From Nemertoderma westbladi (taxonomy: Eukaryota > Animalia > Xenacoelomorpha): a stretch of DNA of 64,000 bases. The stretch lies in the NCBI GenBank assembly GCA_032718475.1, contig JAUCBJ010002659.1:62001-126000 (forward strand). Direction: 5' to 3'. Every line of letters begins with the position of its first letter. The stretch's first letter is position 1. This document shows positions 30,171 through 62,000 of this stretch, in pieces. The translations under genes and the position numbers were made by a program. The notes under the pieces are model-generated. The model saw only the letters and a list, made by a program, of their open reading frames with translations. It was not told the origin of the DNA and did not search any database.

Positions 30171-31662
30171 TCCCTATGCTACAGTATGCTAATTTTTAGA
30201 GCAACAATTTGTCCGACTTTTTTATCCGCATTTTCGAGGTGCACATGCACAATCATGGCTTCTTTGGAGTTCGGCACGTATTAACCCCCCTGTTACTATA
30301 GGTAACGGCGGCTGCCTAAGCACGTTGCTGAACAGATTCTTCCATTTCCCAACACGTTCTTCAGCTTTTAGGCGCCCTGTCCCAAATCGATTGTCATAAA
30401 CTAAAGTTTGTCTGCAATAATAATGTCGACACTACGTAGAATCAAAACATTTATTTTGGATTAATTAAGAATTAGTTTTGGGTTATCACCTTATTTTACA
30501 TAGATTTACTGGACTAATGATTAAATTATTTTAAATAAAGCAGATTTGTTTTAATACCAAACACAGATATTTAATAACTATTTTTATAGTATCTCACTAG
30601 ATATTATATAAAAATTAGGGGGGAGTCAATCTTGAATATGCTGTACGGTATATTAATTCCAGGGCCTTAAGGGATTATGAGGCGCCGTTAACGCAAAAGT
30701 ATTAGCGGTATTAAATATAATATTACAGAATTTAAAAATATTTTATATTATAATTAATTAATTAGAAATATTTTATTGCATTTTCAGCTCTTCCATTTGA
30801 TGAAATATTTCGTGATTTCCCAAGTTTGGAGGGAAAATTGAAATTATCTTTGAAGTACGTATTTTGTTGCTTAGAATCTTGTTTCTTGAACATTTTCATC
30901 ATATCAGTCAGTACCGGTAGCTTACTACTGTACATCAATTCGTTGTATTGTTCCTTGCGAATAGTACTGGTGGAAGTCCTCGATATATTATTACGATGAT
31001 CAGATAAGTTACTTTCACAAGAGTAGGTTTACTCAACGAGATATATCGCGTATAATTGGAGTTTCTGTACGAACTGTTAGTCGCCGTTGTAAAATATAAA
31101 TAAAATATTTCGGCCGAAAATATGCTTTTAAATCCTCTAATATTATTGCTGACCTTTTGGCGTTAACGTACATAAGAAGTTTATCATACACATTACTCAT
31201 ACATAAGAAGTTTAATTTCTTCATAGTTGCTACTACCACCACATATTCTAGAACATTGTTTGTCAGCCGCACTTAAAATTTATTTCAGTAGGCCAAGTAG
31301 CACATTGAAATTATTAACGTTATTCTTACGCCATCTTACGCCACCTTCTGGAAGATAGTGTCATAATTCAGTGCCACAACTACCTACCATCCCATAACTT
31401 GCCCAGATTCTAGAACACATAAATTACGGCACTGTTTCCTTTTTTTGGCTGCCATTTGATTTCTGTATTTACCCGCCAATATATTATTTTTTGCGTTTTT
31501 AGGGCGTGTAAGTAGCGAAAAAAAATATTAATTAATTTCATTATTTTGGCTTGTATGTATATGGCGGGTAAATAGCAAAACAATTAATTAATTTGATTTC
31601 ATATTTTTTCGTTATTTGAATTTAAATTAATTTAAGTTGTGGGTAATAAGCGAAAAAAAGTA

Positions 31663-33183: not shown

Positions 33184-34204
33184 GGGTATAACTTTTCGCC
33201 GTATCCGTATCAATTTGCCGTATCCGTATGCACATACGCGTGTGCGTATGTAATGGATTCCTATGGAGAATAATCCGTATGTAATTTTAAAGATTAGGCA
33301 TTGTGGACCAGTAAGAAGTGCACAACACACATGCAGACTGAAGACAGGTAGGCCTACTTAAAGCTAAGTGATTTAAAGAGTGTGGCTGCCGCTACCTAAT
33401 GGCAAATAAACATTGTAGGTCCAGCATGAGTGACAGATGATGTCCTTCAGCCCCGGGATGCGCCACAGCGCTTGTTTTATTGTACTAAACTGACACGTGG
33501 ACGCCCGGTTGGACTTAGATAAATTACTGACACCCGGACGTACTCGCTCACACGTGGTTTGACTAACTGGCACTAGGTTGGTCTTGTTGGCACTTGGCTG
33601 CATAGGGCCTCTATGGTTAACTAAATACTGGCCCCGAAACGGCGAAAGTAAAGGTATATTACATGTTAATAAAATTCAAAAAGAAGGACAGACTGGCACG
33701 ACTGTTTTCAATATCTGTACGAATGTTTATTCCCTTAGCATTCTCATTGCTGCTTCTATCTGTCTATACTATGTTAGTGCCATATACTGTAGCAACTAAC
33801 ATCATTCTATAGCCAGGTTGGTAGAAAAATAGTTCAAAAATAAATCACGGTTGGTTAGTTTTCCAAGCGGCGTCAAGAAGAGTTAACCTGTTAATAGGAA
33901 CTGCACTGCTGGCCCATCCCGGGGCTGGTGGACACCGGCTGTCACCCATCCTGGACCTGTCCTGCATTGTTTATTTGACAAAAGGTAGCGGCAGCCACAC
34001 TTTTTAAATCACTTAGCTTTAAGTAGGCCTACCTGTCTTCAGTCTGCATGTGTGCTGTGCACTTCTTACTGGTCTGCAATGCCTAATCTCTAAAATCACA
34101 TACGGATTATTCTCCATAAAAATCCATTACATACGCACATACGCGTATGTACATACGGATACGGCAAATGCATACGGATACGGATATGGCGAAAAGTTAT
34201 ACCC
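33184..34204. mobile_element. Mutator/MULE-like MITE with long (~250-290 bp) TIRs
   Basis: GGGTATAACTTTTCGCC... / ...GGCGAAAAGTTATACCC long inverted arms; 9-bp TSD AATAGACTG / AAAAGACTG (one mismatch). Confidence 0.85.
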
Positions 34205-43300: not shown

Positions 43301-45985
43301 AATGGGTAAATACCGAAAACACTGCGTGGGTAAAAACCGAAAGAGGCGGGTAAATACCGAAAAGAGTTTGTGGGTAAATACCGAAAAGACTTTGTGGATA
43401 AATACCGAAAAGAGTTCGTGGGTAAATACCGAAAAGAGTTCGTGGGTAAATACCGAAAAGAGTTCGTGGGTAAATACCGAAAAGAGTTCGTGGGTAAATA
43501 CCGAAAACACTGCATGGGTAAATACCGAAAAGAGTTCGTGAGTAAATACCGAAAAGAGTTCGTGGGTAAATACCGAAATGAGTTCGTGGGTAAATACCGA
43601 TAAGAGGTAATGGGTAAATACCGAAAACACTGCGCGGGTAAAAACCGAAAGAGGCGGGTAAATACCGAAAAGAGTTTGTGGGTAAATATCGAAAAGAGTT
43701 TGTGGGTAAATACCGAAAACACTGCGTGGGTAAGTACCGAAAAGAGTTCGTGAGTAAATACCGAAAAGAGTTCGTGGGTAAATACCGAAATGAGTTCGTG
43801 GGTAAATACCGAAAAGAGGTAATGGGTAAATACCGAAAACACTGCGCGGGTAAAAACCAAAAGAGGTGGGTAAATACCGAAAAGAGTTTGTGGGTAAATG
43901 CCGAAAAGAGTTTGTGGGTAAATACCGAAAAGAGTTCGTGGGTAAATACCGAAAAGAGTTCGTGGGTAAATACCGAAAAGAGTTCGTGGGTAAATACCGA
44001 AAAGAGTTCGTGGGTAAATACCGAAAAGAGTTCGTGGGTAAATACCGAAAAGAGTTCGTGGGTAAATACCAAAAAGAGTTCGTGGGTAAATACCGAAATA
44101 AGTTTGTGGGTAAATACCGAAAAGAGTTCGTGGGTAAATACCGAAAAGAGTTCGTGGGTAAATACTGCGTGGGTAAGTACCGAAAAGAGTTCGTGGGTAA
44201 ATACCAAAAAGACTTTGTGGATAAATACCGAAAAGAGTTCGTGGGTAAATACCGAAAAGAGTTCGTGGGTAAATACCGAAAAGAGTTCGTGGGTAAATAC
44301 CGAAATGAGTTCGTGGGTAAATACCGAAAACACTGCGAGGGTAAGTACCGAAAAGAGTTCGTGAGTAAATACCGAAAAGAGTTCGTGGGTAAATACCGAA
44401 AACACTGCGAGGGTAAGTACCGAAAAGAGTTCGTGAGTAAATACCGAAAAGAGTTCGTGGGTAAATACCGAAATGAGTTCGTGGGTAAATACCGAAAAGA
44501 GGTAATGGGTAAATACCGAAAACACTGCGCGGGTAAAAACCGAAAGAGGCGGGTAAATACCAAAAAGAGTTTGTGGGTAAATACCGAAAAGAGTTCGTGG
44601 GTAAATACCGAAAAGAGTTTGTGGGTAAATACCGAAAAGAGTTCGTGGGTAAATATTGATAAGAGTTCGTGGGTAAATACCGAAAAGAGTTCATGGGTAA
44701 ATACCGAAAAGACTTTGTGGATAAATACTGAAAAGAGTTCGTGGGTAAATACCGAAAAGAGTTCGTGGGTAAATACCGAAAAGAGTTCGTGGGTAAATAC
44801 CGAAATGAGTTCGTGGGTAAATACCGAAATGAGTTCGTGGGTAAATACCGAAAAGAGGTAATGGGTAAATACCGAAAACACTGCGTGGGTAAAAACCGAA
44901 AGAGGCGGGTAAATACCGAAAAGAGTTTGTGGGTAAATACCGAAAAGACGTTGTGGATAAATACCGAAAAGAGTTCGTGGGTAAATACCGAAAAGAGTTC
45001 GTGGGTAAATACCGAAAAGAGTTCGTGGGTAAATACCGAAAAGAGTTCGTGGGTAAATACCGAAAAGAGTTCGTGGGTAAATACCGAAAACACTGCATTG
45101 GTAAATACCGAAAAGAGTTCGTGAGTAAATACCGAAAAGAGTTCGTGGGTAAATACCGAAATGAGTTCGTGGGTAAATACCGAAAAGAGGTAATGGGTAA
45201 ATACCGAAAACACTGCGCGGGTAAAAACCGAAAGAGGCGGGTAAATACCGAAAAGAGTTTGTGGGTAAATACCGAAAAGAGTTCGTGGGTAAATATTGAA
45301 AAGAGTTCATGGGTAAATACCGAAAAGAGTTCGTGGGTAAATACCGAAAAGACTGCGTGGGTAAATATTGAAAAGAGTTCATGGGTAAATGCCAAAAAGA
45401 GTTCGTGGATAAATACCGAAAAGAGTTTGTGGGTAAATACTGAAAAGAGTTCGTGGGTAAATATTGAAAAGAGTTCATGGGTAAATACCGAAAAGAGTTC
45501 ATAGGTAAATACCGAAAAGAGCTCGTGAGTAAATACCGAAAAGAGTTCGTGGGTAAATACAGAAAACACTGGGCGGGTAAATACCGAAAACACTGCGAGG
45601 GTAAATGCAGAAAAGAGTTCATGGTTAAAAACCGAAAAGAGTTCGTGGGTAATACCAAAAAGAGTGTGCGGGTAAATACTGAAAACACTGCAAGGGAAAA
45701 TACCGAAAACACTGCGTGGGTAAATACTGAAAAGAGTTCGCGGTTAAATACTGAAAAGAGTTCGTGGGTAAATACCGAAAAGAGTGCGCGGGTAAATACC
45801 GAATACACTGCGCGGGTAAATACCGAAAAGAGTTCGCGGGTAAATACCGAAAACACTGCGCGGGTAAATACCGAAAGGAGTTAGTGGGTAAATACCGAAA
45901 ACACTGCGAGGGTAAATACAGAAAAGAGTTCGCGGGTAAATACCGAAAACACTGCGCGGGTAAATACCGAAAAGAGTTCGTGAGT
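40322..45985. repeat. 24-bp satellite, right block (~235 units, with higher-order variant order)
   Basis: Visible tandem array with a near-constant GGGTAAATACCGAAAA core and recurring 8-nt variants. Confidence 0.97.
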
Positions 45986-45989
45986 TCTG

Positions 45990-46560
45990 TCAAGATACAC
46001 TACCTAAGGTAAAAATTATAGATTCTGTAATTTCCGAGGTCGTATATACTAAGTACTTGGGTGTTCTGATTGACAGTAAACTGAATTTTAAAGAACACAT
46101 ATCTATCATCAGGTATATTTTATAGGCTTCGTCACATTTTTCCACTTTATATTCTCCGTACCCTATTTTTCGCTCTTATTTATCCCTATTTACAATACGC
46201 CATTGTCGTGTGGGGAAGTACATATCTGTCGATTTTAAAACCACTTAGAATCAAAATTAAAAAGCACTTCGAGTAATCACCTTCAGCCATTGGCAATCAT
46301 CTTCACTCCCTCTCTATCAACAACTTAATATACTCCCTTTGGATCAATTATAAAATATCAAGTTTATAATATTATGTTTGATGTACATAACAACATCCCA
46401 ACTCCACTTGAGCCTCTATTTCAAAGAGCGTCTTCAATCCATTCATACAATACTCGCTTTTCGGCATCTGGCTTATTTCATCCTCCTCACATTAGGCTAT
46501 GTGTTGCAGAACAATCTCTTTCATTCCAAGGAGCCCGCCTGAGGAATGCTCTGGATGAAA
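45990..46560 (+). pseudogene. CR1/L2-group LINE 3' RT fragment
   Basis: KYLGVLIDSKLNFKEHI, FALIYPYLQYAIVVWG, KKALRVITF and HSYNTR motifs with stops and frameshifts. Confidence 0.8.
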
Positions 46561-49187
46561 GATGCGCTTGCTACCTTTGGTTCCAGTTATCTTAATGGGA
46601 ATGATGCTAAACCCTTTTAACTGGTTCTTCGTGAGGACAGTTATACGTAAACGTGAACGTAGAAGGTTTCATCTTCCGAATCTTTCTCCTCCGATGATCC
46701 TGACTGGTCGAAGTAGTTGGTATAAAAGGTTTGAACCTCTCTTTACAAACCTTTTTTTCCTCTGCTTTATAAACAGCGTTGCACTTGGCTACTTTATTGG
46801 GATGTTCGCGTTGGAAATGTTTGGTGGGAGTGTGGCTGATGGTGTGGAGCAACGTGTCATGGTTGCATGCACATAAAGGAGAAGTATCCTCATTTGGGCA
46901 GTCCTTATGGACATGTCCAGACTTGGTGCACCTCCAGCAAGAATCTAGCGGACGTATCCCCTCCTCTCCTCCACTCTGAGGTCTCTAAAAATGCTACATC
47001 CGTGCAACTTGTGTCCGCTATATTGTCTGCCGTTCCTTTCGCAGAACTGGTATCCGTCAAATTCTGCAGACAACTGATGTCGTGATTGTTTGGCTCCAAT
47101 GGGTGTCAAAACCTTTGAAGTATCCATCGGGGTCATATAGGTCACAGCCTTTGCATTGTCGGAAGCTGTTTAGACCGATTCGGCGCCACAATCGTGATTC
47201 CTTCTGCCGCTATGTGATGGTCCGTATAGTTAGACCATGTCTCTACCACCGCCTCTCAAGAGATCAGTTTGTAGATGTCTGTTAACCTCAATAATCCACC
47301 AGCCTCTTTGCGCTGATACTCCACCTTGTGCCATTCTTGACGCAGTCGATGATTGAGCCAGCCGATAATCCTAATCAGAACCATCGGCGCCTTGGTGTAT
47401 TCTAGTAGACAGATAGACTGCAACGTTCCTATAGCATTCTTTACCTCATCTGCTAATCGTAGAAGATCTATAGGTTTCGAAATGGGTCCACCTCAACAGA
47501 AGTCTTCTATGATGGATTTAGACATGGTGACATTACCGCTGTATATGGAAAATAGAAGGTCGTACGCTAGCTCGAAAGCATCCGGAACTCCTATGAAGGT
47601 TTCTGCTAACCTTTTTGGCTCATCCGAGAGTACCTGAAGTAGGTAGTTGAACTTCTCCGTAGAGGTGAAGGCACACACGGCTATTTGGGAGACAACGTAG
47701 TCTACTAACGTACGCCAATGCTTCGTGTTACCTGAAAACTTCGGCAGTTGTTGTGCCGGTAATCCATGTCTGGCTCTGGACTTGACGATCTCGTCTCCGT
47801 CTCTGTTTGTCGTCGCGCTCTCTGTCTGGAGATGGCATTCAGCCGATCCTGTCTGGGTGAAGTTCATCGATAGGGGTCATAACCGATGGGATCTTCTCCT
47901 CTAGGATTTGGAGTTTGTTGTAGTTCTGGTTCCCTATAAGGTGGTCACTATGGTTGAGATTGGGGTTGTTCTAAATCCGCGCTGGCTCGCAATCGATCCG
48001 AAGGCGGCGCTTCGAGCTACTCTTCGATTTGAGCCAACCGGTCCGCTACAGGTCACATCATCTTGGTAAGTTGTTTAGCGCTAATCACCTCTACTGGTTG
48101 CGACGTAGGTTTCTGTACAGGTGTTTCGTGTGGATGATTATCGATTTATGGGTTTTTCAATCTCTCCGGTTCTCGTTTGAATTTGCCTGCCACTCCAGTA
48201 CGGATTATCTCCCTTTCCGTGGACTCCGCGTCGCTAGATGAGTTGCTGTTGTCGGGATATGGTGGCTGGCGTGTTTGCATTCAGCATATTATTATAGTCG
48301 GCGACATTCATTTTGGTTCGGCATCCATGTTATTCGTCGCTCGGTAGGTTGCTGGCGTGCGATCTCCTGTTGTTGTCGAGTAATCACTGATGTTGTCCAA
48401 CTAACATTGCAGCCTGGCTCCATACGCTGATGAACGATTTATCCAGGTGAGGGTTTTGGTAGGCTCGTGAGCCTTCCATAGCGAGAACTCCTGTCTTCTC
48501 TCCCAGTACAACTTCCAGTTCGTTGATCGGTACGTTGCTACTATAGAGCAAGTCAGTAAGTGCTTCTAACTTCCCATCCAGGCAGTATAGTTCTTCTTCC
48601 TCTTCGGGTTGTAACAATGCGTCCCTCACCTAACAGTTGGTTAAGTTGTTCCCGTTGGTCGATCCTACAACCAACTTAAACAGAATGAGACTTTATCTAG
48701 CACTTACCAATTTATATATTATTTTTACATGGATAAAATTGTCACCGAGTAACTCCGCTACTTCATGTAAACTTCGGAGTTTATTTATGGAGGTATGTAC
48801 CCTACTTTCTACTCTTACCTATAGGGCATAAAACTCGTATCTGGACATTGGAGCCATTAATTCGCGTACGACGCGAAAACCTTATCCGATACATCGAGTA
48901 ATTTGAGCCATGCATCCTCCTATACTCCTAATAATGTTCTCCTGGCTTCCAGTCGAACCTACCATGTCTGGTTCCTGTGATCTAGTTTGCGGGATGGTAA
49001 GGAAGTGTTCGGTTCTACCGTTGCCTCGTGCTACGGCTTCCGGTATTTCTGTTGGCGGTACCAGCGATGCAATCAGTGTGACATCGGTAGAAACGCGAGT
49101 CCTCCTTCTGGGTTTGTCTACTGTCGATCTGTCTGCATCACACGATTCATAGTTGGTAGGGGGGTTTCTAGTTGAGTGCCGTCTCAT
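46561..49187 (-). pseudogene. BEL/Pao LTR-retrotransposon gag plus start of protease region, degenerate and truncated
   Basis: DUF1759-like LPKFSGNTKHW...EKFNYLLQVLSDEPK (47493-47867). BEL-type Cys/His knuckles CTKSGHVHKDC...LCACNHDTLLH (~46840-46930). IIPIKITGTKGSKRI pre-protease segment ends at 46561. Multiple frameshifts and stops. Confidence 0.8.
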
Positions 49188-49324
49188 GTCGGTATTATAT
49201 ACGTCAAGTACAGATCATAATAAATGTAAAATGTCAAAATGTCGAAATGTCAAACTTACCTTGGTATATATATATATATACCCGAACCGGTACAAAATAA
49301 AATCACAAAATAGTATATAATAAT

Positions 49325-49520
49325 TTAATAAGTAATTAAACAGGACTAAGGATGATCCAACTCTATAGCAAATGGAGCGGAAAAAATGAATTCACCACCA
49401 GCGGGGATTGAACCCGCGTCTCCCGATAAACATTCAGGTATGCTAACCACTACACCACGGAGGACTACTCCATTTGCTATAGAGTTGGATCATCCTTAGT
49501 CCTGTTTAATTACTTATTAA
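49325..49520. repeat. Perfect 53-bp inverted repeat (49325-49377 / 49468-49520) enclosing a tRNA-like gene
   Basis: TTAATAAGTAATTAAACAGGACTAAGGATGATCCAACTCTATAGCAAATGGAG and its exact reverse complement, 90 bp apart. Confidence 0.95.
49393..49464 (-). ncRNA. tRNA-like Pol III unit (72 nt; GTT in anticodon position; probably not a translating tRNA)
   Basis: TCCTCCGTGGTGTAGTGGTTAGCATACCTGAATGTTTATCGGGAGACGCGGGTTCAATCCCCGCTGGTGGTG. A box TGGTGTAGTGG, B box GGTTCAATCC. D, anticodon and T stems pair; acceptor stem has two mismatches. T6 terminator 6 nt downstream. Confidence 0.75.
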
Positions 49521-51654
49521 TTTATATAATCTATGGATGTTAAACACATATACAAGTATATAATAATATTATAAATTAGCCTACCGGCTAATTCTGTACC
49601 AATAAGTGGGATAGCGGTATACGCTATCAAAAAATAGATCAACAAGTACGAATAATAAGACAAACAACAGCAACGACTAGGGGAAATATAATACCAATAA
49701 ATGCATAATTTTAGACAGCGGAACCCACGAATGTTGAGTAATACTATGCTCTAAGTTTAAACGACACGAGTCGTAAAACTTACACTCCTTTGAACTTCCA
49801 GTTGTACAGATCCCCAGATACAAACCAGACGAGAACTGTTCCGTTTCCAGCGTCACGGACGAATCCTTTACCTCCCAAACTAGCTGAAAAACGGCCTGAT
49901 CCCCAAGGCGATCCAGAAATGAGTCATTGTGTCCTGAAAAATCGAAGGTGAGAGTTTTACGGCCTACTCTACAAAATAAATTCAAAGGTACCACCCATAC
50001 TAATTCGTCTTTAAACCCTAAGTACCTTCTCGAGTACCAAAAAAAATAACACCACACACACACACAGCCTTAAGACAAAATTTAGTTACAAATTAACGTA
50101 TAGCTAATCAAATACAAACTGTTATACAATTACGTAAATAAACATCGTTCACTGTAAAATCCAGTAACTGTTGTACAATATCTACTGTAAAATCCCAGCA
50201 TAACCATGCCTTAAAATAGATACTAAAGTACACAAACTACTACTGGCGAGATCGGTGCCTGATGTCTTCTACTGAACTTGGGCGAATCAATTGCCTGGGC
50301 TAACTCGACAATCAGGGTGACTGGTCCCTAACTGGTGAGGCAGAAGTACAGTCAACAAAAAGGACCAAACTCGTGAGAAAAGATTCCCCATGTAGCAAAT
50401 CCTAACTACCGTTAATAGCCCTAAACTATGGTAGACTTGCCACGGTGTGATTTATATGGGTATAACAAACCAGTGGGTTGACAACGCTAGTGTAAAACAA
50501 TACTGCCAATCCAGAAAGCAGTCAAAAGGGTGGTATAAATATCAGTAGAATAACAATCTTAAGACGCGTGTGTGTGTGTATGTGTAAATTTCAGTTAATG
50601 TGATCTCTACTAGGTTTTGGTGACTTTTAACAAAATACATCAGGCATAAGCTACTGAAATAAGCTAGTCGCTCTCTGTAGGTGTAATAATACTTACAAAC
50701 TGACGTCAAAGAAAAAAAGCTGTCTCCTCCTATGTTCACAACTCGATCGGGCAAGTACAGTGTCAGTAACTACACCCGTAATCGGCACTTTATACCAGAC
50801 TCTGATTGTGAAAATAGAGAATAGGGTGTTAATTGCTACCGTACCGCTATGTATCTGATCTGGTATGAAATTTTAATCTATAACTTTGTTGCCGTGGTGG
50901 TATGCAGCAAATATCTAGCAGTACGTAGCAAGGGCCGGCAATATGTTAGTAAACGTCCTTAGCCTAAATGGTGTGCCAGTAACAGAAAGCTACCCTTTAC
51001 CTGAGCAAATACGTCAAACCCAGACAGATCAGTTGAAAGCAAAGCCTACAGCGCTAACTGGTACTGAATCGCTAGTACGATAAAGTCACCAAATTATAGT
51101 GTGCTATTTGCACCTAGTGTACCTGTGCGTACGAACAAACAGCACCAGCTCGCACCTGTGAACGATGCAGGTCAACCATGGGGTTTCTGTCTAGATCCGA
51201 GATATTTTACTCCTACATTTTACAGCGTCCCAGGACGTCGTCACACTTTACCCTGATCTAAGGTCTTAGGGTGGATAAAGGCGTCAAACAAAGTCTTACC
51301 TCTGGCATGGGCACTCTCAGGCTCTCGAATCATGGTCTAAGTGCGCGCGTGCGAATAGTTCGCTTATGCGAACTATTATCCCTTATGCGTTGCGGGCATT
51401 CCTCCCCCTTGCACTGCTGTAGCCTAAAGGTTTAGACAGCCATCCCTCTAATGTCGGCTGTTTTCAAGATATGCTAACATATTTTGATTTTTCAATATAT
51501 TTTAACGTAAGCAAATGATTTAACAAATTTATACTACTATTAGTATTACAAGTGAGATAAGTTTTACAAACAGTTAGATTAGACTAAAACTAAACAAGTG
51601 AAGATTAGATAGTTTACAACTAAGAAGAAGGGGTAGATAACTGAAGGGCAAAGG

Positions 51655-51830
51655 GTACCTTTTATAGTAAAGCTGGGGTGTGGAATCGCACTAGAACCTT
51701 CTACAACATTCTATGAGCTCACATTGGTCCAATAACTTATTTAGCACATCCTATCGGTCCAGCTAATCAGTTCTACTAAGTGTACGCACAATATTGGTTC
51801 AACTAATGCTGTACAGATGGGCGGTATATA
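51655..51830 (-). promoter_or_regulatory. LTR U3 Pol II promoter (TATA, CCAAT and GC boxes)
   Basis: Minus-strand TATAAAAG near 51659-51666; ATTGG/CCAAT at ~51723-51733 and ~51794; GGGCGG at ~51818. Confidence 0.55.
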
Positions 51831-51865
51831 CGAAATTGAAATAAATCATTACAAAAAATACAAAT

Positions 51866-51939
51866 GTTACCAATAGGGATTTGAACTCGCGACCTAATAT
51901 ATGCACGACTTACGCGTTAACCTACTAGGCTATTGGACC
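51866..51939 (-). ncRNA. Second, more degenerate tRNA-like Pol III unit inside LTR U3
   Basis: GGTCCAATAGCCTAGTAGGTTAACGCG...AGGTCGCGAGTTCAAATCCCTATTGG. A box TAGCCTAGTAGG, B box AGTTCAAATCC, T6 at 51853-51858. Stems imperfect. Confidence 0.55.
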
Positions 51940-52203
51940 AGTCGATGTAAGTATGTCAAAATATGTTTGATATAGCAAATATATAGTTTTTTTAAATAAA
52001 TCGTAACAGCAAGGCAAATATATCGAAAATTTTGAATTTTTTACGTAAAATCAGTGTACAAATAGCTATCTAAAGGAAATAATTCCACATACACCCACCA
52101 CCACAAATTTGGTTGGAGTGTACAGTACGCATACTGCACTAGAGCCTTTTTTGCATTTATTAGTCTAATATAGATTTGTTAATCCAAGTGCAGCACTCAT
52201 AAA

Positions 52204-54471
52204 ATGATACTTTTCATTATATTAAATGTGAACTTATATATTTTGGTGAGCAGTTTAGATCCATTGTATCTTTGTGATAAATCGAAACCAACGGGTGACT
52301 TCTACACTATAGCTGACGCACCGGAATGCGAAAAGGACACAAATGTCAGCGACTTCCAAGACCATAAAATCAGTGTCTATTACCCTTATGTTCCAAGGCC
52401 GCTGTTTAAAATTGAAGGCTATGTTTGCATTCTAACTCAAAATAGTAAAGTTACAAATTGTAATGCTGATGGGCTTTGGGAACAGATGAAAGGGTGGCAC
52501 GACAAAGATATCGTTCAGAAGTCATGTACAACCGCTAATACTGCTAGAAACAAGTTACAAATTGGTATGGATGAATGCGTGGAGTGGATGGAAGCTAAAG
52601 ACTGTAAAGCATCAATGAAAAGGTATCCGGAAATAGATCCAGAAAATAGTGAAACCAGAATGAAGGCTACTGTTCCACAGGGACCCTTCAACACGCAACT
52701 AACTAAAAAAGATGGTAGTTCTACCTGGTCTACTCATAACGGGATGGCTACAGGCATAGAGGAAGCCATGGTGGTGCATATAGGAGAATGTGAGATGCAA
52801 TGGATTTCTATAACTCTTACCCCAGACCCTGAAGAAATCGGGCAAATAAATATGATATGCCAAACCATGGATGATAGTTACGATTGCACAAATTGCAAGC
52901 TTGAAGATAATAAGTGCGAACTTACTGCATATTATGCACTTGTGTGGGATGCATTGTCAGTCCAATTAAAGGTGGGGGATATTAATAAACTTTACCAACG
53001 TGTTGTCAATGTCGAGAAAGATACAAGGGCTGCCATTGTTTTTGACAAAGATAGGTTTCCAGTCAAAATTACCATACCGGATATGTCTATGGCATTTAAC
53101 CCTAAAAAAGCAACGTTTCGAGAGATAACTTCAACAAATGACAAAGACGGAAGACATTGCGAAGGTTACGAAAAAGAAACAGATGTTGGGGTAATTGAAG
53201 ATGAAGAAATATGTTATGTTGATTTGGAATCTAAGAGAGTCTACGTATTTGAAGTAAAAAAAGAAGAATTACAAACGGAAAAAGTAGCTAAAATGAAGGA
53301 GGGAATCAATGCACAACGAACCGGTCAGACTGAACGAAAAAGAAGAAGAAGACAATCAGTTGAAGATTACAATAATCGATTGATCTACCTAGCTGACAGA
53401 TTGACGGCCGTATTGAGACAAACCAAACTAGATTTGGTATATCAAACGTGTTTGCGTCGTCAAGATGAGTACGCCATGTGGAATATGTTGGCAGAAATCA
53501 ATCCGGAAGTTGTCATGAAAGCCTTCCATATCGCTGGTTCGGGTCGTTATGTCGGCAATTTTATCGCATCGCATCTTTGCCAAAAAATAACAGATTACAC
53601 CGTGGTAGACAGTTTAATGATGGAGGAATCAGATAAAACGATCGATAAGCAAAGTGATGATACAGTCAATAATGCCACCAACTCTACAGGAAACACTAAC
53701 AATTCTGATGAAAATTGGAATAGAGCATATTGGAAAGAAATTGGCTATGAGGGTGCAGACAGGCCGAAATGCGCAAACAGACCTATAATATTGTGGAATA
53801 ATACAAAATACCAATTAGGAATAGACGGCCATCCTACCTATGATCTAATTGAACTCACCAACTGCCAGGAAAAGAATGTTAAATTCCACTTTAAGATAGG
53901 GGGCACGATTTTTACCTACATCAACTACACGAAATACCATATATCTCAATCATTTCCGAAGATTCAACCAAACGAGCCATTCAAATTTACGCATTCATCG
54001 CCGGTGAAGTTTAAAAGCATCCCGGATGTTTACAACCACCGTTCTGGACAAAGTGACCTACAGGCTTTGCGGAATAGTAGAGCAAAGATTTGGACAAAAA
54101 GACAACAAGTAAATAAATATTATTATCAGATTCGAAAAAATAATTCTGAACAAAACAGAGAGCTGGATCCTTATGACATGAGTTTATCGGGAATGCTGAA
54201 AGGCGTCGTCAGTACTATTTTCGATAGCTTTGCATACAAATTGTTGGAATATATTACAGGAGATTTCGCCCAGAAAGTGGTGCTAGTCTTTTTGTTGACG
54301 GGTTGCGTTTGTGGATGGATGGGGTTTGCGTTCATGATACTGGATCTTCTTGTTGAGTTTGGGTGTATCGGCAAGAAGGATCTAGGGAAGAAGAAGAAGA
54401 AACCGGTATCGAAGTTGTTCGAGAAAAAGAACAATAAAGTTAAACAATCATCTGTCTATGTAGCAGGATGA
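52204..54471 (+). CDS. Viral-type envelope fusion glycoprotein, herpesvirus gB-like (class III), 755 aa, intact and intronless
   Basis: Signal peptide MILFIILNVNLYILVSS; Cys-rich ectodomain; furin site RKRRRR. gB domain III/IV-like motifs TCLRRQDEYAMWNMLAEINPE..GRYVGNFIASHLC, CANRPII..YQLGIDG..TNC..FHFKIGGTIFTYINY. Several N-glycosylation sequons, C-terminal TM helix and basic tail. Confidence 0.85.
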   Translation: MILFIILNVNLYILVSSLDPLYLCDKSKPTGDFYTIADAPECEKDTNVSDFQDHKISVYYPYVPRPLFKIEGYVCILTQNSKVTNCNADGLWEQMKGWHDKDIVQKSCTTANTARNKLQIGMDECVEWMEAKDCKASMKRYPEIDPENSETRMKATVPQGPFNTQLTKKDGSSTWSTHNGMATGIEEAMVVHIGECEMQWISITLTPDPEEIGQINMICQTMDDSYDCTNCKLEDNKCELTAYYALVWDALSVQLKVGDINKLYQRVVNVEKDTRAAIVFDKDRFPVKITIPDMSMAFNPKKATFREITSTNDKDGRHCEGYEKETDVGVIEDEEICYVDLESKRVYVFEVKKEELQTEKVAKMKEGINAQRTGQTERKRRRRQSVEDYNNRLIYLADRLTAVLRQTKLDLVYQTCLRRQDEYAMWNMLAEINPEVVMKAFHIAGSGRYVGNFIASHLCQKITDYTVVDSLMMEESDKTIDKQSDDTVNNATNSTGNTNNSDENWNRAYWKEIGYEGADRPKCANRPIILWNNTKYQLGIDGHPTYDLIELTNCQEKNVKFHFKIGGTIFTYINYTKYHISQSFPKIQPNEPFKFTHSSPVKFKSIPDVYNHRSGQSDLQALRNSRAKIWTKRQQVNKYYYQIRKNNSEQNRELDPYDMSLSGMLKGVVSTIFDSFAYKLLEYITGDFAQKVVLVFLLTGCVCGWMGFAFMILDLLVEFGCIGKKDLGKKKKKPVSKLFEKKNNKVKQSSVYVAG

Positions 54472-55627: not shown

Positions 55628-58600
55628 ATGTGGCGTGTTCAGTTTGACATAGAAATTGGTAACAGGCGTAAACCAGTATATAATAAGAAGTACAACCCGT
55701 TATCCCAATTACGACAATATGATTTTTTTGAAAGGTTCAGGTTTTATCCTGTTCATTTTGAAGAAATTCTTTCAGTTATTCGTGGTGACATCATGTTAGA
55801 TCCAAAGAAGGGTGTTTCCTGAAATACAGTTGGCTATACTACTACCAGGTACTACGCTGATGGAGGGTATGCCAGAGCTGTTGGAGATTTACATTATCTC
55901 TGGAAATGGATTGTTTTCGGCTGGAACCCAGTTCAAGAAGCGAACTGGAAAGCTATGGACTCATAGTGGACCCAGTGGTCACAAGTCCCAGATAGACCAT
56001 ATCCTGTTTCGTAGGAAATACAGGAGCTCTATACAAGACTGTAATGCATTTACACTACGACCCTTCTCCAGTGATCACTGCCTTATTGTGGTTCAAGGTA
56101 AGACTTAGTCTGCGTGCTAGCAGAACAACGAAATCTGCCTTGCCGCGGCATGACTGGTCCTCTCTGTTGCAACAGCCAAGTGTGAGATCCAGCTTCACAC
56201 TACAGCTGAGCAAGAGGTATGAGGTTCTTGCCTCTGAGGCGGCAGATCACTGTGAGGGCTATACTGCCTTCACAGAGGCAGTTAAGTTAGCAGCTGCAGA
56301 AACAGTTCCTGTATACCCTCGAAACAGGAAACGGGCCCCCTGGACTGACAACAAAATTCAGAAGTGCCGAAATGACCTCTACAAGGCGCAGAAAGAGTCC
56401 CGACTCAAACAGACTACAGCGGCCAAGAATGCAGTAAAGGCTGCATCTAGGTTACTGAACAGGCAGTACTTTGTTAATTTACCGGAGCTAATAAACCAAC
56501 AGGTTGATGCCATCAATCATGCTGACGACATCACAGGCATGGAGATCGATCAACTTGCTTGCTTGTCGAAAAAGCCAACCAACCACCAAGGTTAAGGCTG
56601 AATCACCAGCCGATCGCCTCAATGGTTGGAAGGCCCACTTTGAAAAGCTCCTCAATAATGACAGGGTATTGCCTGATAACTTTATAGAAGTAAAAGTGTC
56701 TGAGTCTGTACTCCCAGATATTCCCATTGGTGATATCTCCTTTGCAGAAGTGAAGGCTGCTGCAAAGAGCATTAAGACCAATCGTGCCAGTGGAGTAGAT
56801 GGTGTTCCCCCTGAGGTCTTTAAAATACCTGAGTGTTAAAGCTCATCTATCCCATCATAGTAGACATGTACCGAACAACAAGAAATGAAAACAAATAAGT
56901 TGGTGCCAGTTCCCAAGAAGGGCAACCTAACACTCTTTGGTTCTTATCGGGGAATCTCATTGATCTCGATTGCTGCAAAGCTATACAATAGAATTCTATT
57001 AAATCGCATCAGGGATCCCATTGAGAGACTGCTCCGTGGAAATCAGAATGGGTTCCGTAAAGGTCGTGGGACCATGGAGCCCATTTTGGCACTTAGAAGG
57101 ATAATTGAAGAGTTATCAAAAAAGAAAGACAGGCATCTGGCTGTTATCTTTGTTGACTTCTTCAAGGCCTTTAATTTAGTCTCTCGTTCACGTATGTTCA
57201 GCATACTTTCATTATATGGGATTCCTGATGAAATTATTGCAGCAATCAGATCAGTATGCGATGGTTCGACAACATTTGTGTCTACTGTTGACGGTGACAC
57301 ATAACCATTTGAAGTGTTATGGGGCGTCCTCCAGGGAGACACACTTGCACCATTCTTGTTCGTAATTGTTGTTGACTATGTTCTACGCATGTTCTTAGAT
57401 CATCATAATGATGATGGGGTGATGATAACTCCACCTACTGGCTCCAGAAGTCGAGGAATTCCTGCCAAGTACCTAACTGATCTAGACTTTGCTGTTGACT
57501 TAGGAGTACTCTCAGAATCACTAGAGGGAGCCCAATGGCTCCTCAGCTCATTAGAACATGCTGCTTCCAGTGTTGGTCTTTTTATTAACTCCAGAAAGAC
57601 CAAAATTCTGACAGTTAACTTTGAAAGTCCTCAGCAAGTCTCTGATCGGATGAGCATAAGCTCAAAAGATGGTATGCTTGAGCATGTGGATGACTTCTGT
57701 TACCTGGGATCATGGATCCGGAAGTCAGGTGAGGACCTTCGAATACGTAAGGGAAAGGCATGGGCAGCCTTGAATAGGCTCTCCAGGATTTGGAAGTCAC
57801 CGAGAATTAATCGGAAACTTAAGGTCCGATTATTTAGAGCAGCAGTAGTTCCAGTACTCCTCTATGGGAGTCCATGCTGGGCTCTAACTGCTGAGGACAC
57901 CAAATCTCTGGATGGCACATTCACAAGAATGCTACGCCGGGTTCATTGTGTCAAGTACAATGCACACATCTCCAACGGGACACTATATAACATTGGAGGT
58001 GTCTCATTGGTTCCCCCAAGCTTGACACTAGAACAAAATCGCCTCCGCTTTGCAGGACATTGCTTTCGCCGTGAGGACCAGCCAGTGCATAATCTTGTAC
58101 TTTGGCAGCCTCATGGAGTGAATAAGCATGGTGGACAGCCCATGACTTTCTTGAGACGCATCTTAAAGGACACTGGCCTTGAAGATGCGGATAATCTAGC
58201 AAATGTCATGGGTGATAGGGAGTTGTGGCGGAGCAATTTTGTCGATAAGCCGGCACAGCATTCTTAAAAATGCAGCTGCAATGCAGCATGCCGATCCTAG
58301 TAGTAGTACAGCGGCCAAATGCATACATAGGGTGTCCAATGCGTTATACAAACACAAGGATGGGTTCATTACATGGCCTGATACATCCCGCCAAGCCGAG
58401 ATTCAGAAGGAATTTTACGAGTACTCAACGAACCACAGCCAGTATAAAGGAATGCCTGGTACTGTCGGATTGGTTTATGGGACGCACATCAACATTTCAA
58501 CTCCTGTAGATAATGAAAGTGCTTATGTAAATGGACGTAAGAATCGACATACTATAAATACGCAAATTGTATGTGATGCCAAAATGCGTATTTTAGACAT

Positions 58601-59079
58601 TTGTTGTTTCCCAGGCGCTTCGCATGATTCCTTCCTATTACGACAGAGTGGTGTACCTGCGAGATTTCAAGATAACGCTACAGGTTGGTTGTTGGCAGAT
58701 TTGGGGGGGGGGGGGGGTATGGGTTGAAAAAATGGTTGATGACGCCTATTGAGAAGCCACTTACTAGTTCTCAATTGCGGTACAACAGGGCGCATAAGAG
58801 GACGCGGTCGATAGTAGAAAGGGTCAATGGAGTTGTTAAATCTCGATTTCGTTGTCTATCCTTGGAGCGCAAAATACTTGCTTGCGCATGTAAATACATG
58901 CTTGTGCATGTCTACACAATTATGCTATCAGGTGTAATGTACCACTTGTTCCAGTTGATGCACGATATGATGAAGAAGAAATTGCTGATCGTCAATATGA
59001 TGTTCGGGCTACTGTGGAGTACGACATTATTGGTAAAGTTGCACGAGATCGAATTGTGGAGAGATTTTTTCAAGAGTGA
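55628..59079 (+). pseudogene. Harbinger (HARBI1-like DDE) transposase, frameshifted and split by an RTE LINE
   Basis: FFERFRF, PEIQL, RYYADGG..VGDLH | LINE | STAAKCIHRV, GLVYGTHI (catalytic D of DGTH replaced by Y), PGASHDS, LLAD, TRSIVERVNGVVKSRFRCL, RDRIVERFF*. Confidence 0.85.
55901..58305 (+). mobile_element. RTE-clade LINE, 5'-truncated (C-terminal APE plus RT), inserted in Harbinger transposase
   Basis: QIDHILF..SSDH (APE end); VPVPKKG, YRGISL, QNGFR, FVDFFKAF, GVLQGDTLAP, DLDFAVD, YLGS; short (TAG)n tail; several frameshifts. Confidence 0.9.
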
Positions 59080-62000
59080 ACAGGCAATAAACACTAAACA
59101 GAAACTACAGTACAGTAAGTTCATTAAACTTCGCGAACGGTGATGTAAAAGTCAAGGATTATCAATAATTAATTGATGAAAATTTAGATACGTAAAATGA
59201 AATAATAAATAAATATAAGAATGATTTAAAAAAAATTAAAAAATGTATTTTTAAAATAAATGTAAAAAGTATTTTTTTGCAGTTGTACTGTAGTAGGCCT
59301 GCATTTCTTTGAAAACTCCGCACCAAATAAATTAACACGAACGCAAATTTGTTAAAGTAAAATAATTGAGTCTGCAAGACTTATTTTTTTCACACATTAA
59401 ACTGTTATGTGCAAAATTTGATGTTTGGAAAAGAAATATTATATTGAATTGAATTGAGCACTCAAGACTCAAAGTGTAACAAACTTTGAATTTTGGGTGA
59501 TAGGCATCACATTCTGGAAAATGGCCACAAACGATGTGAATAGAAATAGATCGTACTGTAGACGTTAAAGTTATTCTGCCAAGTTTCAGCTCCGCATATA
59601 ACCGGCAAGTCTTAGGACGTTCTAACGTCGTTCTAACGCAAAGAGTCTAAACTTTAAAGAGCCTCTAACTCCATTAATAGCAGCTACAATTTTTGCTACC
59701 GCAACTACCGCTACCGCAAAAAGTAACTACCGTACTATCCCTGCACTACACTAAGGTTCCATCTTGGTGTAGTCAGGTTGCATTGAATTCACATCTCTCC
59801 AGAGTTCGATCCTTGCATGGGGGCCCAGGCAATTTTCATTTCGGCAAGAATTATTTAAAGGGACTAACCAGGGTGCATCTCTTCCCACTAGCATACCGAG
59901 GAATCGGTAAAGGGCGTGGCCATATCTATGCCGGACTTTGGCACTACCACCTCCCACCTCTTCCACCCCCACCCCCCCCCCCCTCCCCCCCAACCAAAAG
60001 ACCCTACCAATCGGATAAAAGCGAAGAGCAACAATTGAAAAATATATTTTCATATTGATCGAAGTAGTAGGTAAAATTAAAAGGCAGTGCATTTCGAATT
60101 TTCTTTCTCATCCATTTTCAATGTTTTACAGAGATTTTCCTACGGTTTCTACGGAGACCTAATTGTAAACAAAAAATACATTTTGTACTGTGATGGGATC
60201 GTAGATCCCGACCGGGTTATATTTTGTATGCGTCGCCTGACTGCTGGTCTGCTGGTTCTTTAGGCTGAGAGCCGTTCGGGAAAATAACAGAGTTTTGTGT
60301 TCCTCAATGTTAATGTTCCAAATGATAATAGCACAGAATTAGTAATGTGACTGATATCGCAATACAGAATGAATGACTGCAGTAAATCGGTAATAGATAT
60401 TAGTTGGCGACGGTCGAAAACTATGACTGGTCTGCAACTCTGTGATTAATGAACTGACCGGTAAATCAGTAATACAGAATAATATATGATTAACACACAC
60501 GGATATTGGTTTCACCTCTTACTCTACTTGGCCTTCTGTACCCAGTGGATGCTCTCCTATCTCTTTTCACGTGCTCCCCTGCCTGCTATTGGCTTACATA
60601 CTAATTGTCACTTTGGCACTCCCTGTGAGTGTTTCCCCCCACCGCTAGCCTTTACAAGCTATGTTCTCCCTCCGAGGTGGTTTGACCTCTCACCTCTCTC
60701 TGTGGCTTTAGGGCTTGTATCGCCCCCCCCCCCCCCCCCCAAAGTTGGTTATGAGGCGAGATTATTATTGGTAATCTCGTATCCCCAACTATATTGGTAA
60801 AATGCCACTGGTCCCATTTTCGGGTGGATAGTGCAATGGAATTGAATCCGCTTACATGTACATACGATTTGTGGGTCTTAAACACACCACCTTCAGGGGG
60901 ACGTGAATTCAAGGCAATGGATTAAACCGCTACGGCTTAATTAGATAACTTCTGATAGTTAAATTTTTGAGGAATTTTTTTTTACTATCTTTCAAGGGGG
61001 ACGCTATAGCCACACGGTCTCCCCCTCGGTACGCTAGTGTACTCTTCCTTGCATCCTTACTTGAGTGGTAGCTACATGAGTACTGGAGTTTCCTCTTGTA
61101 ATTCTCTGGGACCGCACTGGAAATAAGACTTTGTGCGTAATCACTGGCCTACCGGCCGAAGATAACTTTACTTTTACTTTACCTTCACTGTAACCTACTC
61201 CTTTTCATTAATATATTAAATTTAATTATTGAATCGATGCTATCAATATTTTAATTAGGAGGCCCCTATGTGAATTAGAATGGATTTAACAAAATTTTCG
61301 TTAAAAAATAACATTTTTCTGATATTATATTTTTTAGAGCAATGGAGCCTTAAGTTCCACAGGCGTCTTTAAATAAATAATGAGTCTCTTAATACGTTAT
61401 TTTAGGGCTCTACAGTATTATGCAGCTCTTTAGGTTGCGTTGCTGAGTATATAGTTGACCATGCGAGTACACATGAGTAGATCAGTATAAACAATATAGA
61501 CAGTATAGAGTAAACATAATCGGGATCGTGGGTGGCACTACACATTATCAGTGGATGTTTTTATATTGAATCATTAACAAGAATAAAGGGATGCCGCATA
61601 TGGAAATTTTCATACATCAAAGGGACCGCATATGGAAAAGTTAGTTCTCTGTTATTGATCTGCTCATCCCCTAAACAGAAGGCTAACAGAGAACATTTAA
61701 ACAGCGAACTAAAATAGGTAAATTGCTCACCAAATTTGCACTCTCTGATAAAACCCTCTGTTAATGCTCTCTGTTTAAGTTAACAGAAGGCATTAACAGA
61801 GAACCAATTACTCATCGCCCCAGGTCACTGGCGAAAACATATTTAAGTTAGGGGGGGGGGGGGGGGGGGTGTTGCGATCTATTACAGGTGATCAAAGTAG
61901 TATTATAGCCAACTTAAATACGGATATTAGTCTACTATTACACCATGAGGATGGAAAAATACCATCAACACTTTGTTGCACTTGTTGCTTTTAAAACTTG

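What the first reader, a model, noticed from the sequence alone, without database searches (positions are those of the whole stretch)
49305..49537. PBS replaced by a 53-bp perfect hairpin with a tRNA-like gene in its loop: possible self-encoded reverse-transcription primer
Seen: on the element (minus) strand the LTR end ...TTTAACA is followed by TCCATAG, not a TGG-type PBS. Then come arm 1 (49520-49468), a 72-nt tRNA-like unit with A/B boxes, T6, and arm 2 (49377-49325), exactly complementary to arm 1. Imperfect pairing (TATATA, CTAT) extends to ~3 nt from the LTR edge, and T4 runs follow arm 2. The arms are perfect while neighbouring gag is decayed. Established: LTR elements prime on host tRNA 3' ends at this position, and Tf1-type elements self-prime. 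Inference: an RNA ending after arm 2 (Pol III read-through from the internal promoter, or processing at the tRNA mimic) would anneal at the PBS position with its 3' end pointing into U5, i.e. the element supplies its own primer. Caveat: the T6 between tRNA and arm 2 should stop Pol III early. Alternatives are an siRNA-producing hairpin or a small tRNA-containing MITE.
Basis: partly seen in the sequence, partly recalled or inferred. Interest (0 to 1): 0.85.

Follow-up and report, generated by a model that had tools for sequence, protein, structure and literature searches.

The report
Retrotransposon hairpin with built-in tRNA-like gene
A many-copy BEL/Pao jumping gene of an animal carries, where its host-tRNA primer site would likely sit, a perfect 53-base-pair hairpin with a tRNA-like gene in the loop, which would let the element make its own primer for DNA copying, although a hitch-hiking insert is not excluded.

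Summary
The hairpin is real: perfect 53-bp arms around a 90-nt loop holding a tRNA-like unit with A/B boxes and T6. It lies 140 nt upstream of a decayed BEL/Pao gag. Public contigs from three studies show that hairpin, loop and the TTTAACA flank are a many-copy repeat, and that the flank stays with arm 1 where upstream DNA differs. No TGG occurs within 60 nt of that flank, whereas 25 of 33 called LTR pairs in distant BEL loci (one host assembly) show an ordinary PBS and no hairpin. Not shown: that TTTAACA ends an LTR (no second LTR here; a rival edge with TGG lies 69 nt upstream), any RNA, or matched arm changes beyond one indirect case. 'Arms perfect while gag decays' is weak (P about 0.07-0.26). 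This copy's arm-1/tRNA junction is atypical. Best reading (0.4): a Pol III read-through RNA from the loop supplies arm 2 as primer; T6 and the competing cis hairpin count against it. Rivals: passenger insert (0.3), non-priming role (0.25). Ten literature searches found no such design; the scan had no look-alike on other DNA.

The parts
49538..50632 (-). Candidate 5' LTR of the BEL/Pao element (start TGTTAAA at 50632 or TGTTA at 50555; end TTTAACA at 49544-49538); inferred, no partner LTR in the window
   Evidence: 7-bp and 5-bp terminal inverted matches; many-copy cover from 49575 to about 50545 (50561-50600 skipped as repeat); no second copy
49574..49607 (-). Rival LTR edge: CA at 49607, 5-nt spacer, TGGTACAGAAT at 49601-49591, followed by an 8-bp hairpin (49593-49574); predicted to pair with 49298-49287
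   Evidence: fold; no variant listed for 49575-49608
49555..49567 (-). 13-nt direct repeat, upstream copy (possible target duplication or deletion end-point)
   Evidence: joints 49296-49555 and 49296-49571
49521..49537 (-). 17-nt spacer between TTTAACA and arm 1 (PBS position); no TGG; pairs imperfectly with 49324-49310
   Evidence: depth close to that of arm 1 in all three runs
49468..49520 (-). Arm 1 (53 nt), the predicted primer-binding strand
49393..49464 (-). tRNA-like unit, 72 nt: A box 49457-49447, B box 49414-49405, 5-bp anticodon and T stems, 5 of 7 acceptor pairs, non-canonical anticodon loop
   Evidence: variants
49378..49392 (-). 6-nt trailer, T6 (49386-49381, Pol III terminator-like) and CCG
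   Evidence: no length variant of T6 listed
49325..49377 (-). Arm 2 (53 nt), exact complement of arm 1, the predicted primer
49307..49324 (-). 13-nt direct repeat, downstream copy (49324-49312), ending in CTAT and T4 (49310-49307), the predicted end of a read-through RNA
   Evidence: low cover in other copies (49290-49319)
49255..49298 (-). Leader: strand pairing with 49602-49591 (49298-49287), 20-nt palindrome GG(TA)8CC (49282-49263), splice-donor-like GGTAAG (49260-49255)
   Evidence: many-copy cover at 49245-49274; roles are inference
46560..49187 (-). Decayed BEL/Pao gag: first ATG 49187, DUF1759 near 47740-47500, Cys-His knuckles near 46939-46845; broken by many stops and frameshifts, ends before any recognisable pol

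Best explanation
The hairpin with its tRNA-like loop is a conserved, many-copy feature upstream of a BEL/Pao gag that likely occupies the primer-binding position and would supply the element's own reverse-transcription primer. Proposed steps: (1) shown: the loop has A and B boxes, a cloverleaf and T6, and fits between the inner ends of the arms; (2) inferred: Pol III transcribes it, mostly stopping at T6, but a minority reads through arm 2 and stops at the T run about 15 nt further on; (3) inferred: the tRNA mimic is cut off by tRNA-processing enzymes, leaving an about 85-nt trailer whose 3' part is complementary to arm 1 and the spacer; (4) inferred: inside the particle, Gag exchanges this RNA for the genome's own arm 2, and after trimming of the U tail its 3' end primes minus-strand DNA 3 nt from the LTR end; (5) inferred: plus-strand copying of the primer re-templates arm 1 from arm 2 each cycle, keeping the arms matched. 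The copy in this window is dead and has an altered arm-1/tRNA junction.
For: Structure. Position and lack of TGG within 60 nt of TTTAACA; none of the 29 TGG sites in 50700-49180 came within 2 mismatches of a named tRNA end in the 189-row table (compared by eye). No Tf1-type complement upstream (longest run 7 nt). Many-copy and linked: depth at 49527 (spacer) 18,313 / 40,874 / 1,063 against 22,171 / 64,380 / 562 at 49432 (tRNA) in X1 / X3 / X5; loose ends show the TTTAACA-type flank kept beside arm 1 where the DNA further upstream differs (X3 at 49319, X5 at 49336, 49544, 49555); one X5 contig of 1,092 nt at depth 209 joins arm 1 and the flank to about 800 nt of other, apparently multi-copy DNA. 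The conserved flank has no mirror after arm 2, unlike a terminal inverted repeat. Control: 25 of 33 called LTR pairs among 80 distant BEL loci have an ordinary PBS 0-7 nt after CA (19 of the 25 end in ACA), 0 of 33 an inverted repeat of 12 bp or more after the LTR; the predicted primer end here is 3 nt from ACA. One indirect matched change: the majority variant at 49517 is seen also at the outer end of arm 2 in loose ends at 49336 (18-22 contigs a run, agreement about 0.7).
Against: LTR edge unproven; rival edge CA-5nt-TGG at 49607/49601 fits the control spacing too. T6 lies before arm 2 and shows no length variant. Swapping the genome's own arm 2 for a separate primer is nearly isoenergetic: -1.2 kcal/mol (161-nt RNA), -4.2 (86-nt trailer) at standard state, so it needs a high local primer concentration. 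The outermost 4-bp pairing that brings the 3' end near the LTR is seen only in this copy; 49290-49319 has low cover. The arm-1 variant at 49497 (15-32% of depth) has no listed mirror at 49348 (collapsed arms may hide it). Hairpin depth exceeds upstream-flank depth about 3-5 fold in X3 and 8-15 fold in X5 (49432 and 49527 against 49609), and some X5 contigs have another loop. The 25 control PBS come from one host assembly and are only 20-35% like this gag at best.
Confidence: 0.4

Rival explanations
1. The unit (about 49554-49325) is a small tRNA-derived mobile insert (SINE- or MITE-like) that landed in the leader or U5 of an ancestral BEL element and was amplified with it; the true PBS is the TGG site at 49601 or has decayed, and the arms stay matched by palindrome repair.
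For: 13-nt direct repeat brackets the unit; two contigs (X1 depth 76, X3 depth 85) lack the unit and keep one copy of the repeat; loose ends share the boundary 49555 in X1 (7 contigs) and X5 (2 contigs); 18-22 contigs a run leave arm 2 into unlike DNA; hairpin depth exceeds flank depth in X2, X3, X5; the site at 49601 matches an unnamed tRNA end of the table at 11 of 12. Earlier scan notes report abundant tRNA-headed repeats in this genome (not checked).
Against: The conserved 5' flank (49554-49521) has no mirror at the 3' side, there is no A tail and the tRNA head is internal, so it fits neither a MITE nor a SINE; the two empty contigs are as well explained by deletion between direct repeats flanking a hairpin; both repeat copies lie in stretches with low cover in other copies; the 11-of-12 table entry is a single 2-mismatch nt from an LTR in a bryozoan element; in X1 hairpin and flank depths are about equal.
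Confidence: 0.3
2. The hairpin is an integral cis element but not the primer: it serves genome dimerisation or packaging, or its short T6-terminated tRNA mimic acts as a decoy or insulator, while priming uses an unidentified RNA at the TGG site at 49601 or another route.
For: T6 is conserved and should end most Pol III transcripts before arm 2; two leaders could pair arm to arm, and a 20-nt palindrome and a long-range U5-leader pairing lie beside it; the loop varies (deleted, duplicated, replaced) in low-depth contigs while arms persist.
Against: It leaves the primer unexplained if TTTAACA is the LTR end; no named tRNA end fits 49601; the predicted leader homodimer used only 20 intermolecular pairs, not the arms.
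Confidence: 0.25
3. The hairpin is a private rearrangement or an assembly artefact of this one decayed copy.
For: Almost no contig bridges this copy's arm-1/tRNA junction (depth 5.7 / 113 / 0 at 49463-49467).
Against: 506, 495 and 36 contigs from three studies lie on the 431-nt stretch; contigs bridge arm 2 to the tRNA, arm 1 to the upstream flank, and one diverged contig spans 49353-49509.
Confidence: 0.05

Closest known systems
BEL/Pao LTR retrotransposons (Belpaoviridae; ICTV profile PMC8742986, whole text read)
   Same: DUF1759 gag with Cys-His knuckles; relatives are Pao polyproteins; candidate LTR of 1.0-1.1 kb lies within the 0.2-1.2 kb range; TGTT...AACA-type ends.
   Different: The profile gives an 18-nt PBS for host tRNA-Arg or -Gly, and the control loci have a tRNA-Tyr-type PBS; here no TGG lies near the candidate edge and a 196-nt hairpin with a tRNA-like gene takes its place.
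Tf1/Tf2/Tj1 and the Tf1/sushi group, self-priming (PMC7175516, PMC4600332, PMC6317226; passages read)
   Same: No host tRNA; primer would come from the element's own sequence.
   Different: Tf1 uses the first 11 nt of its mRNA, upstream of the PBS, released by RNase H. Here the complement lies downstream, is 53 nt or more, and would come from a separate Pol III RNA; Tf1 is a Ty3/gypsy chromovirus.
Helenus, Ajax, Cassandra (TRIMp3; Kojima 2024, PMC10886601; abstract, second half of Results and Discussion read)
   Same: tRNA-derived A/B-box sequence inside an LTR retroelement.
   Different: There it lies in both LTRs of a non-coding TRIM as a promoter, the PBS is for a host tRNA, and the author found no complementarity to the PBS. 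Here it lies once, behind the candidate LTR, is closed by T6, and is enclosed by arms complementary at the PBS position.
Conserved Hairpin Site of fungal GalEa copia elements (Donnart 2017, PMC5445492; passages read)
   Same: A conserved hairpin directly after the 5' LTR replaces the PBS; mechanism unknown.
   Different: 9-bp arms with a 12-41-nt loop, palindromic first arm, Ty1/copia; no tRNA-like gene.
tRNA mimics used as promoters or processing signals (MALAT1 mascRNA, gammaherpesvirus tRNA-miRNA RNAs; recalled, not tested)
   Same: Non-decoding cloverleaf that could direct Pol III transcription and RNase P/Z-type cutting of a downstream RNA.
   Different: None is known to me to yield a reverse-transcription primer.

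Membership tests
BEL/Pao (Belpaoviridae) | Pao-type gag (DUF1759) with Cys-His knuckles | tested here: met
   PF03564 above cut-off; knuckle motifs read; 3 of 6 scanned relatives are full Pao polyproteins with PF05380 and PF18701
BEL/Pao (Belpaoviridae) | pol with protease, RT, RNase H, integrase | tested here: inconclusive
   copy ends near 46560; no pol in frame translations of 45900-49300
BEL/Pao (Belpaoviridae) | two LTRs with TG...CA ends and a target duplication | tested here: inconclusive
   no second LTR in the window; 5-7-bp terminal matches only; no genome held
BEL/Pao (Belpaoviridae) | host-tRNA PBS next to the 5' LTR | tested here: inconclusive
   absent at the TTTAACA edge; an unassigned TGG site at 49601 and an 8-nt Tyr-like match at 50367 remain
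Tf1/sushi self-priming | PBS complementary to the 5' end of the element RNA inside the LTR | tested here: not met
   longest exact complement in 49545-52100 is 7 nt
Tf1/sushi self-priming | Ty3/gypsy chromovirus proteins | tested here: not met
   gag is Pao-type
TRIMp3 (Helenus) | tRNA-derived promoter inside both LTRs of a non-coding TRIM with host-tRNA PBS | tested here: not met
   single unit, closed by T6, followed by gag
GalEa Conserved Hairpin Site | 9-bp palindromic arm in a Ty1/copia element | tested here: not met
   53-bp arms, Pao gag
MITE | terminal inverted repeats at both ends of the repeated unit | tested here: not met
   the conserved unit extends about 30 nt beyond arm 1 with no mirror beyond arm 2
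MITE or SINE-like insert | independent copies with their own target duplications | tested here: inconclusive
   13-nt direct repeat and two contigs lacking the unit; flanking DNA of other copies is not retrievable
Decoding tRNA gene | cloverleaf with A and B boxes | tested here: met
Decoding tRNA gene | U33, purine 37 and a full acceptor stem | tested here: not met
   position 37 is T, acceptor 5 of 7 pairs; essentially all other copies lack U at position 33 (49432)
Self-encoded primer (proposed) | read-through RNA exists and is linked to strong-stop cDNA | not testable with these tools
   no RNA run listed

The most novel reading that the evidence does not exclude
A lineage of animal BEL/Pao retrotransposons has dispensed with host tRNA by carrying a complete Pol III tRNA-mimic gene inside a long inverted repeat at the PBS: the gene makes the element's own primer, and reverse transcription copies that primer back into arm 1, so primer and binding site co-evolve automatically. 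This would be a third priming route beside host tRNA and Tf1-type self-priming, and would free the element from control by host tRNA fragments.
Probability: 0.4. Interest if true: 0.88.

Novelty: new variant of a known kind. Interest (0 to 1): 0.62.

Why it matters
BEL/Pao replication is described as poorly understood and assumed to use a host tRNA (PMC8742986). An element-encoded Pol III primer would be a new way to start reverse transcription, directly testable by mapping one RNA-DNA junction. It would also bear on the other PBS-less lineages (GalEa, Skipper) whose primers are unknown. If the unit is only a passenger, it is still an undescribed kind of tRNA-containing hairpin repeat, but of modest interest.

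Tried and rejected
No whole genome is held, so no copy census. No RNA holder listed; this says nothing on expression. Exact-pattern scans for arm or loop motifs found nothing in viral contigs, metagenomes or prokaryote genomes. Word-based homolog searches found nothing for the env-like ORF or the gag piece; gag and a Pao alignment found no loci in viral contigs. The 80 distant BEL loci hold no blastn match to the unit. The ABCA3-like ORF placed the host only as an animal without close annotated relatives (best 47-48% identity). The mature tRNA-like unit (with CCA, or cut in the anticodon loop) as primer: rejected, no complement beyond 6-7 nt in the element. Tf1-type self-priming: rejected. A short LTR ending near 50370 before an 8-nt Tyr-like TGGTCCTT: considered weak, since about one such match is expected among 29 TGG sites (rough estimate) and no CA precedes it. 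Nicking of the genomic RNA behind arm 2 as the primer source: possible but ranked below a separate RNA, because it would split the genome (inference). Loop orientation relative to gag and true compensatory changes cannot be read from contigs, because 53-nt arms collapse in the assembly graph. A second tRNA-like stretch at 51940-51865 got no tRNA match. Look-ups of earlier scan findings by sequence, place and words found no look-alike.

Full report
Observation. On the minus strand TTTAACA (49544-49538) is followed by a 17-nt spacer, arm 1 (49520-49468), a 90-nt loop and arm 2 (49377-49325); the arms are exactly complementary over 53 bp. The region folds at -116 kcal/mol, z = -14.2, with 0 of 200 shuffles as stable, and it is the longest perfect inverted repeat with arms under 1 kb apart in the window. 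The loop holds the only tRNA that ARAGORN calls in the window (49464-49393); Rfam scores it 42 bits against a gathering score of 29. It has A and B boxes and good anticodon and T stems, but 5 of 7 acceptor pairs and a T at position 37. T6 follows 6 nt later (49386-49381) and T4 runs follow arm 2.

Context. An ATG at 49187 opens a heavily broken minus-strand gag with DUF1759 and Cys-His knuckles that stops near 46560. Its 49 relatives are 20-35% identical; of six scanned, all carry DUF1759 and three are full Pao polyproteins; named ones are insect proteins. So the element is BEL/Pao-type and distant from sampled families. The host is an animal without close annotated relatives. No second copy of 49300-52200 exists in the window and no genome is held, so the LTR is inferred only: TGTTAAA at 50632 or TGTTA at 50555 mirror TTTAACA, and many-copy cover fades near 50545 (50561-50600 was skipped as a repeat). 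No AATAAA occurs in the candidate LTR.

Other copies. Six runs were listed, all one species label, none on record as RNA. Four were laid on 48400-50600 (872, 1,419, 908 and 47 contigs; X2 and X3 are one sample; X1 holds identical stretches and may be the source) and three on 49230-49660 (506, 495, 36 contigs). Depth is no copy number, but values of 10,000-60,000 against 35-50 for contigs identical to the window show a repeat of the order of hundreds of copies. Depth in X1 / X3 / X5 is 22,171 / 64,380 / 562 in the tRNA (49432), 18,313 / 40,874 / 1,063 in the spacer (49527), 16,730 / 12,875 / 71 upstream (49609) and 24,680 / 23,487 / 39 downstream (49260-49274). The spacer and TTTAACA thus travel with arm 1, while this family's upstream and downstream DNA accounts for most hairpins in X1, a minority in X3 and few in X5. 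Loose ends (18 of 245 rows shown) show the same kind of flank beside arm 1 with unlike DNA beyond it, and one X5 contig (1,092 nt, depth 209) joins it to about 800 nt of other apparently multi-copy DNA and to a different loop. This fits related BEL families sharing the hairpin, or an independent unit.

This copy is atypical. It differs from most others at three CpG-type sites in the tRNA (49394, 49409, 49432) and at 49527, 49609, 49614 (table complete). Essentially all other copies lack U33, so the unit is not a decoding tRNA. Almost nothing bridges this copy's arm-1/tRNA junction (depth 5.7 / 113 / 0); opposite-strand joints at 49385/49457 and loose ends at 49463 suggest that in other copies arm 1 runs further inward, pairing with CCG and part of T6, with extra bases before the tRNA. 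The loop would then be one whole Pol III unit, start to terminator. Low-depth contigs show the loop deleted (49374-49469, 49376-49471), duplicated or replaced while arms persist.

Are perfect arms significant? The arms have no CpG, gag has 131. With 3 non-CpG or 6 total near-fixed differences in about 237 well-covered non-arm bases (denominator estimated by eye), zero mismatches in 106 arm bases has P = 0.26 or 0.07; at 5% divergence 0.005. Matched change is seen once and indirectly: the majority variant at 49517 also appears at the outer end of arm 2 in loose ends at 49336 (20, 22 and 18 contigs in X1, X2, X3). A second arm-1 variant (49497, 15-32% of depth) has no listed mirror; collapsed arms may hide it.

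Is there an ordinary PBS? No TGG occurs between 49600 and 49473. Of 29 TGG sites in 50700-49180, none came within two mismatches of a named tRNA end in the 189-row table of PMC13524379 (compared by eye). Two near cases: 8 nt of the Tyr type at 50367, and 11 of 12 at 49601 to an unnamed entry that is itself a weak call. The 49601 site follows CA at 5 nt, so it is a real rival edge; it also pairs with 49298-49287 in the fold, as a U5-leader stem would (recalled from retroviruses). Control: 80 of 475 confirmed BEL loci were kept from a partial metagenome scan; 33 gave a direct-repeat pair, 25 of these with TGGTCCTTCGA 0-7 nt after CA, all from one host assembly; the other 8 look like contig-end overlaps, truncated or unrelated repeats. 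0 of 33 had an inverted repeat of 12 bp or more after the edge and 0 of 80 a tRNA upstream, though many have little upstream DNA.

Insert or integral part? For an insert: a 13-nt direct repeat brackets the unit, two contigs lack the unit and keep one repeat copy (depth 76 and 85), and loose ends share the boundary 49555 in X1 and X5. Against: the conserved flank is one-sided, there is no A tail, the tRNA is internal, deletion between direct repeats explains the empty contigs equally, and both repeat copies lie in stretches poorly covered by other copies.

Mechanism. The mature tRNA-like unit has no binding site in the element and there is no Tf1-type complement upstream. The only long complement of the PBS position is arm 2. 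A Pol III RNA reading through T6 would end at the T4 that begins at the last paired base, 3 nt from ACA, within the 0-7 nt spacing of the controls; that last 4-bp pairing is seen only in this copy. Predicted binding of such an RNA to the folded leader is -1.2 kcal/mol uncut and -4.2 after removal of the tRNA mimic, so the genome's own arm 2 competes on nearly equal terms and priming would need a concentrated primer and a chaperone. T6 should stop most transcripts (general knowledge of Pol III). I put self-supplied priming at 0.4, a passenger insert at 0.3, an integral non-priming role at 0.25, artefact at 0.05. All mechanistic steps after the anatomy are inferred.

Literature. Ten searches (titles and abstract starts seen) listed no paper on a tRNA-like gene inside an inverted repeat at the PBS or on an element-encoded Pol III primer; the library lacks most subscription papers and Repbase notes. 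Read: PMC8742986 whole (host tRNA-Arg or -Gly PBS, replication poorly understood); PMC10886601 abstract, Results part 2 of 2 and Discussion (tRNA-like LTR sequence does not match the PBS); passages of PMC5445492, PMC3601003, PMC3118150 (no mention of PBS), PMC4600332, PMC5006619, PMC6317226, PMC7175516, PMC13524379 (and supplement 1 parts 1 and 34 of 34). Other supplements were not read and could hold BEL families with this leader. Earlier scan findings include several PBS-less elements in other genomes but no look-alike of this one.

Verdict. A real, conserved and apparently undescribed leader structure in a divergent BEL/Pao lineage, with a testable but unproven self-primer reading. New variant of a known kind; interest 0.62.

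Noticed in passing
window 52204-54471 (+): Intact 755-aa ORF with signal-peptide-like start, basic cleavage motif and C-terminal hydrophobic stretch; weak Pfam glycoprotein B hit (E 0.001, below cut-off), Atlas neighbours at 0.90-0.92 are class III viral fusion proteins, no sequence homologs. It lies 1.6 kb beyond the candidate LTR, divergent from gag; whether it is this family's env is unknown.
   Followed up: partly
window 51940-51850 (-): Second stretch with A- and B-box-like motifs, a 7-bp closing stem and a T run; no tRNA match in Rfam or ARAGORN. Possibly a decayed SINE head.
   Followed up: partly
window 20354-24787 (+): ABCA3-like transporter coded in one uninterrupted 1,477-aa frame (N-terminal part missing from this ORF); best relatives only 47-48% identical, pointing to an intron-poor, poorly sampled animal lineage.
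   Followed up: partly
window 49282-49255 (-): Perfect 20-nt palindrome GG(TA)8CC followed by GGTAAG, between hairpin and gag start; many-copy with length variants of the TA run. Order resembles dimerisation site and splice donor of retroviral leaders (recalled).
   Followed up: no
window 27516-30171: 45-nt tandem repeat, 59 copies, 100% matched: very young array or assembly artefact.
   Followed up: no
window 33241-33419 and 33961-34139: 179-nt inverted repeat, 93% complementary, 541 nt apart; MITE-like.
   Followed up: no
window 24898-25628 and 57576-58308; 58203-59140: Two 96% identical 730-nt copies of a LINE-type RT fragment, the second followed by a broken DDE_Tnp_4 (Harbinger-like) transposase.
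   Followed up: no
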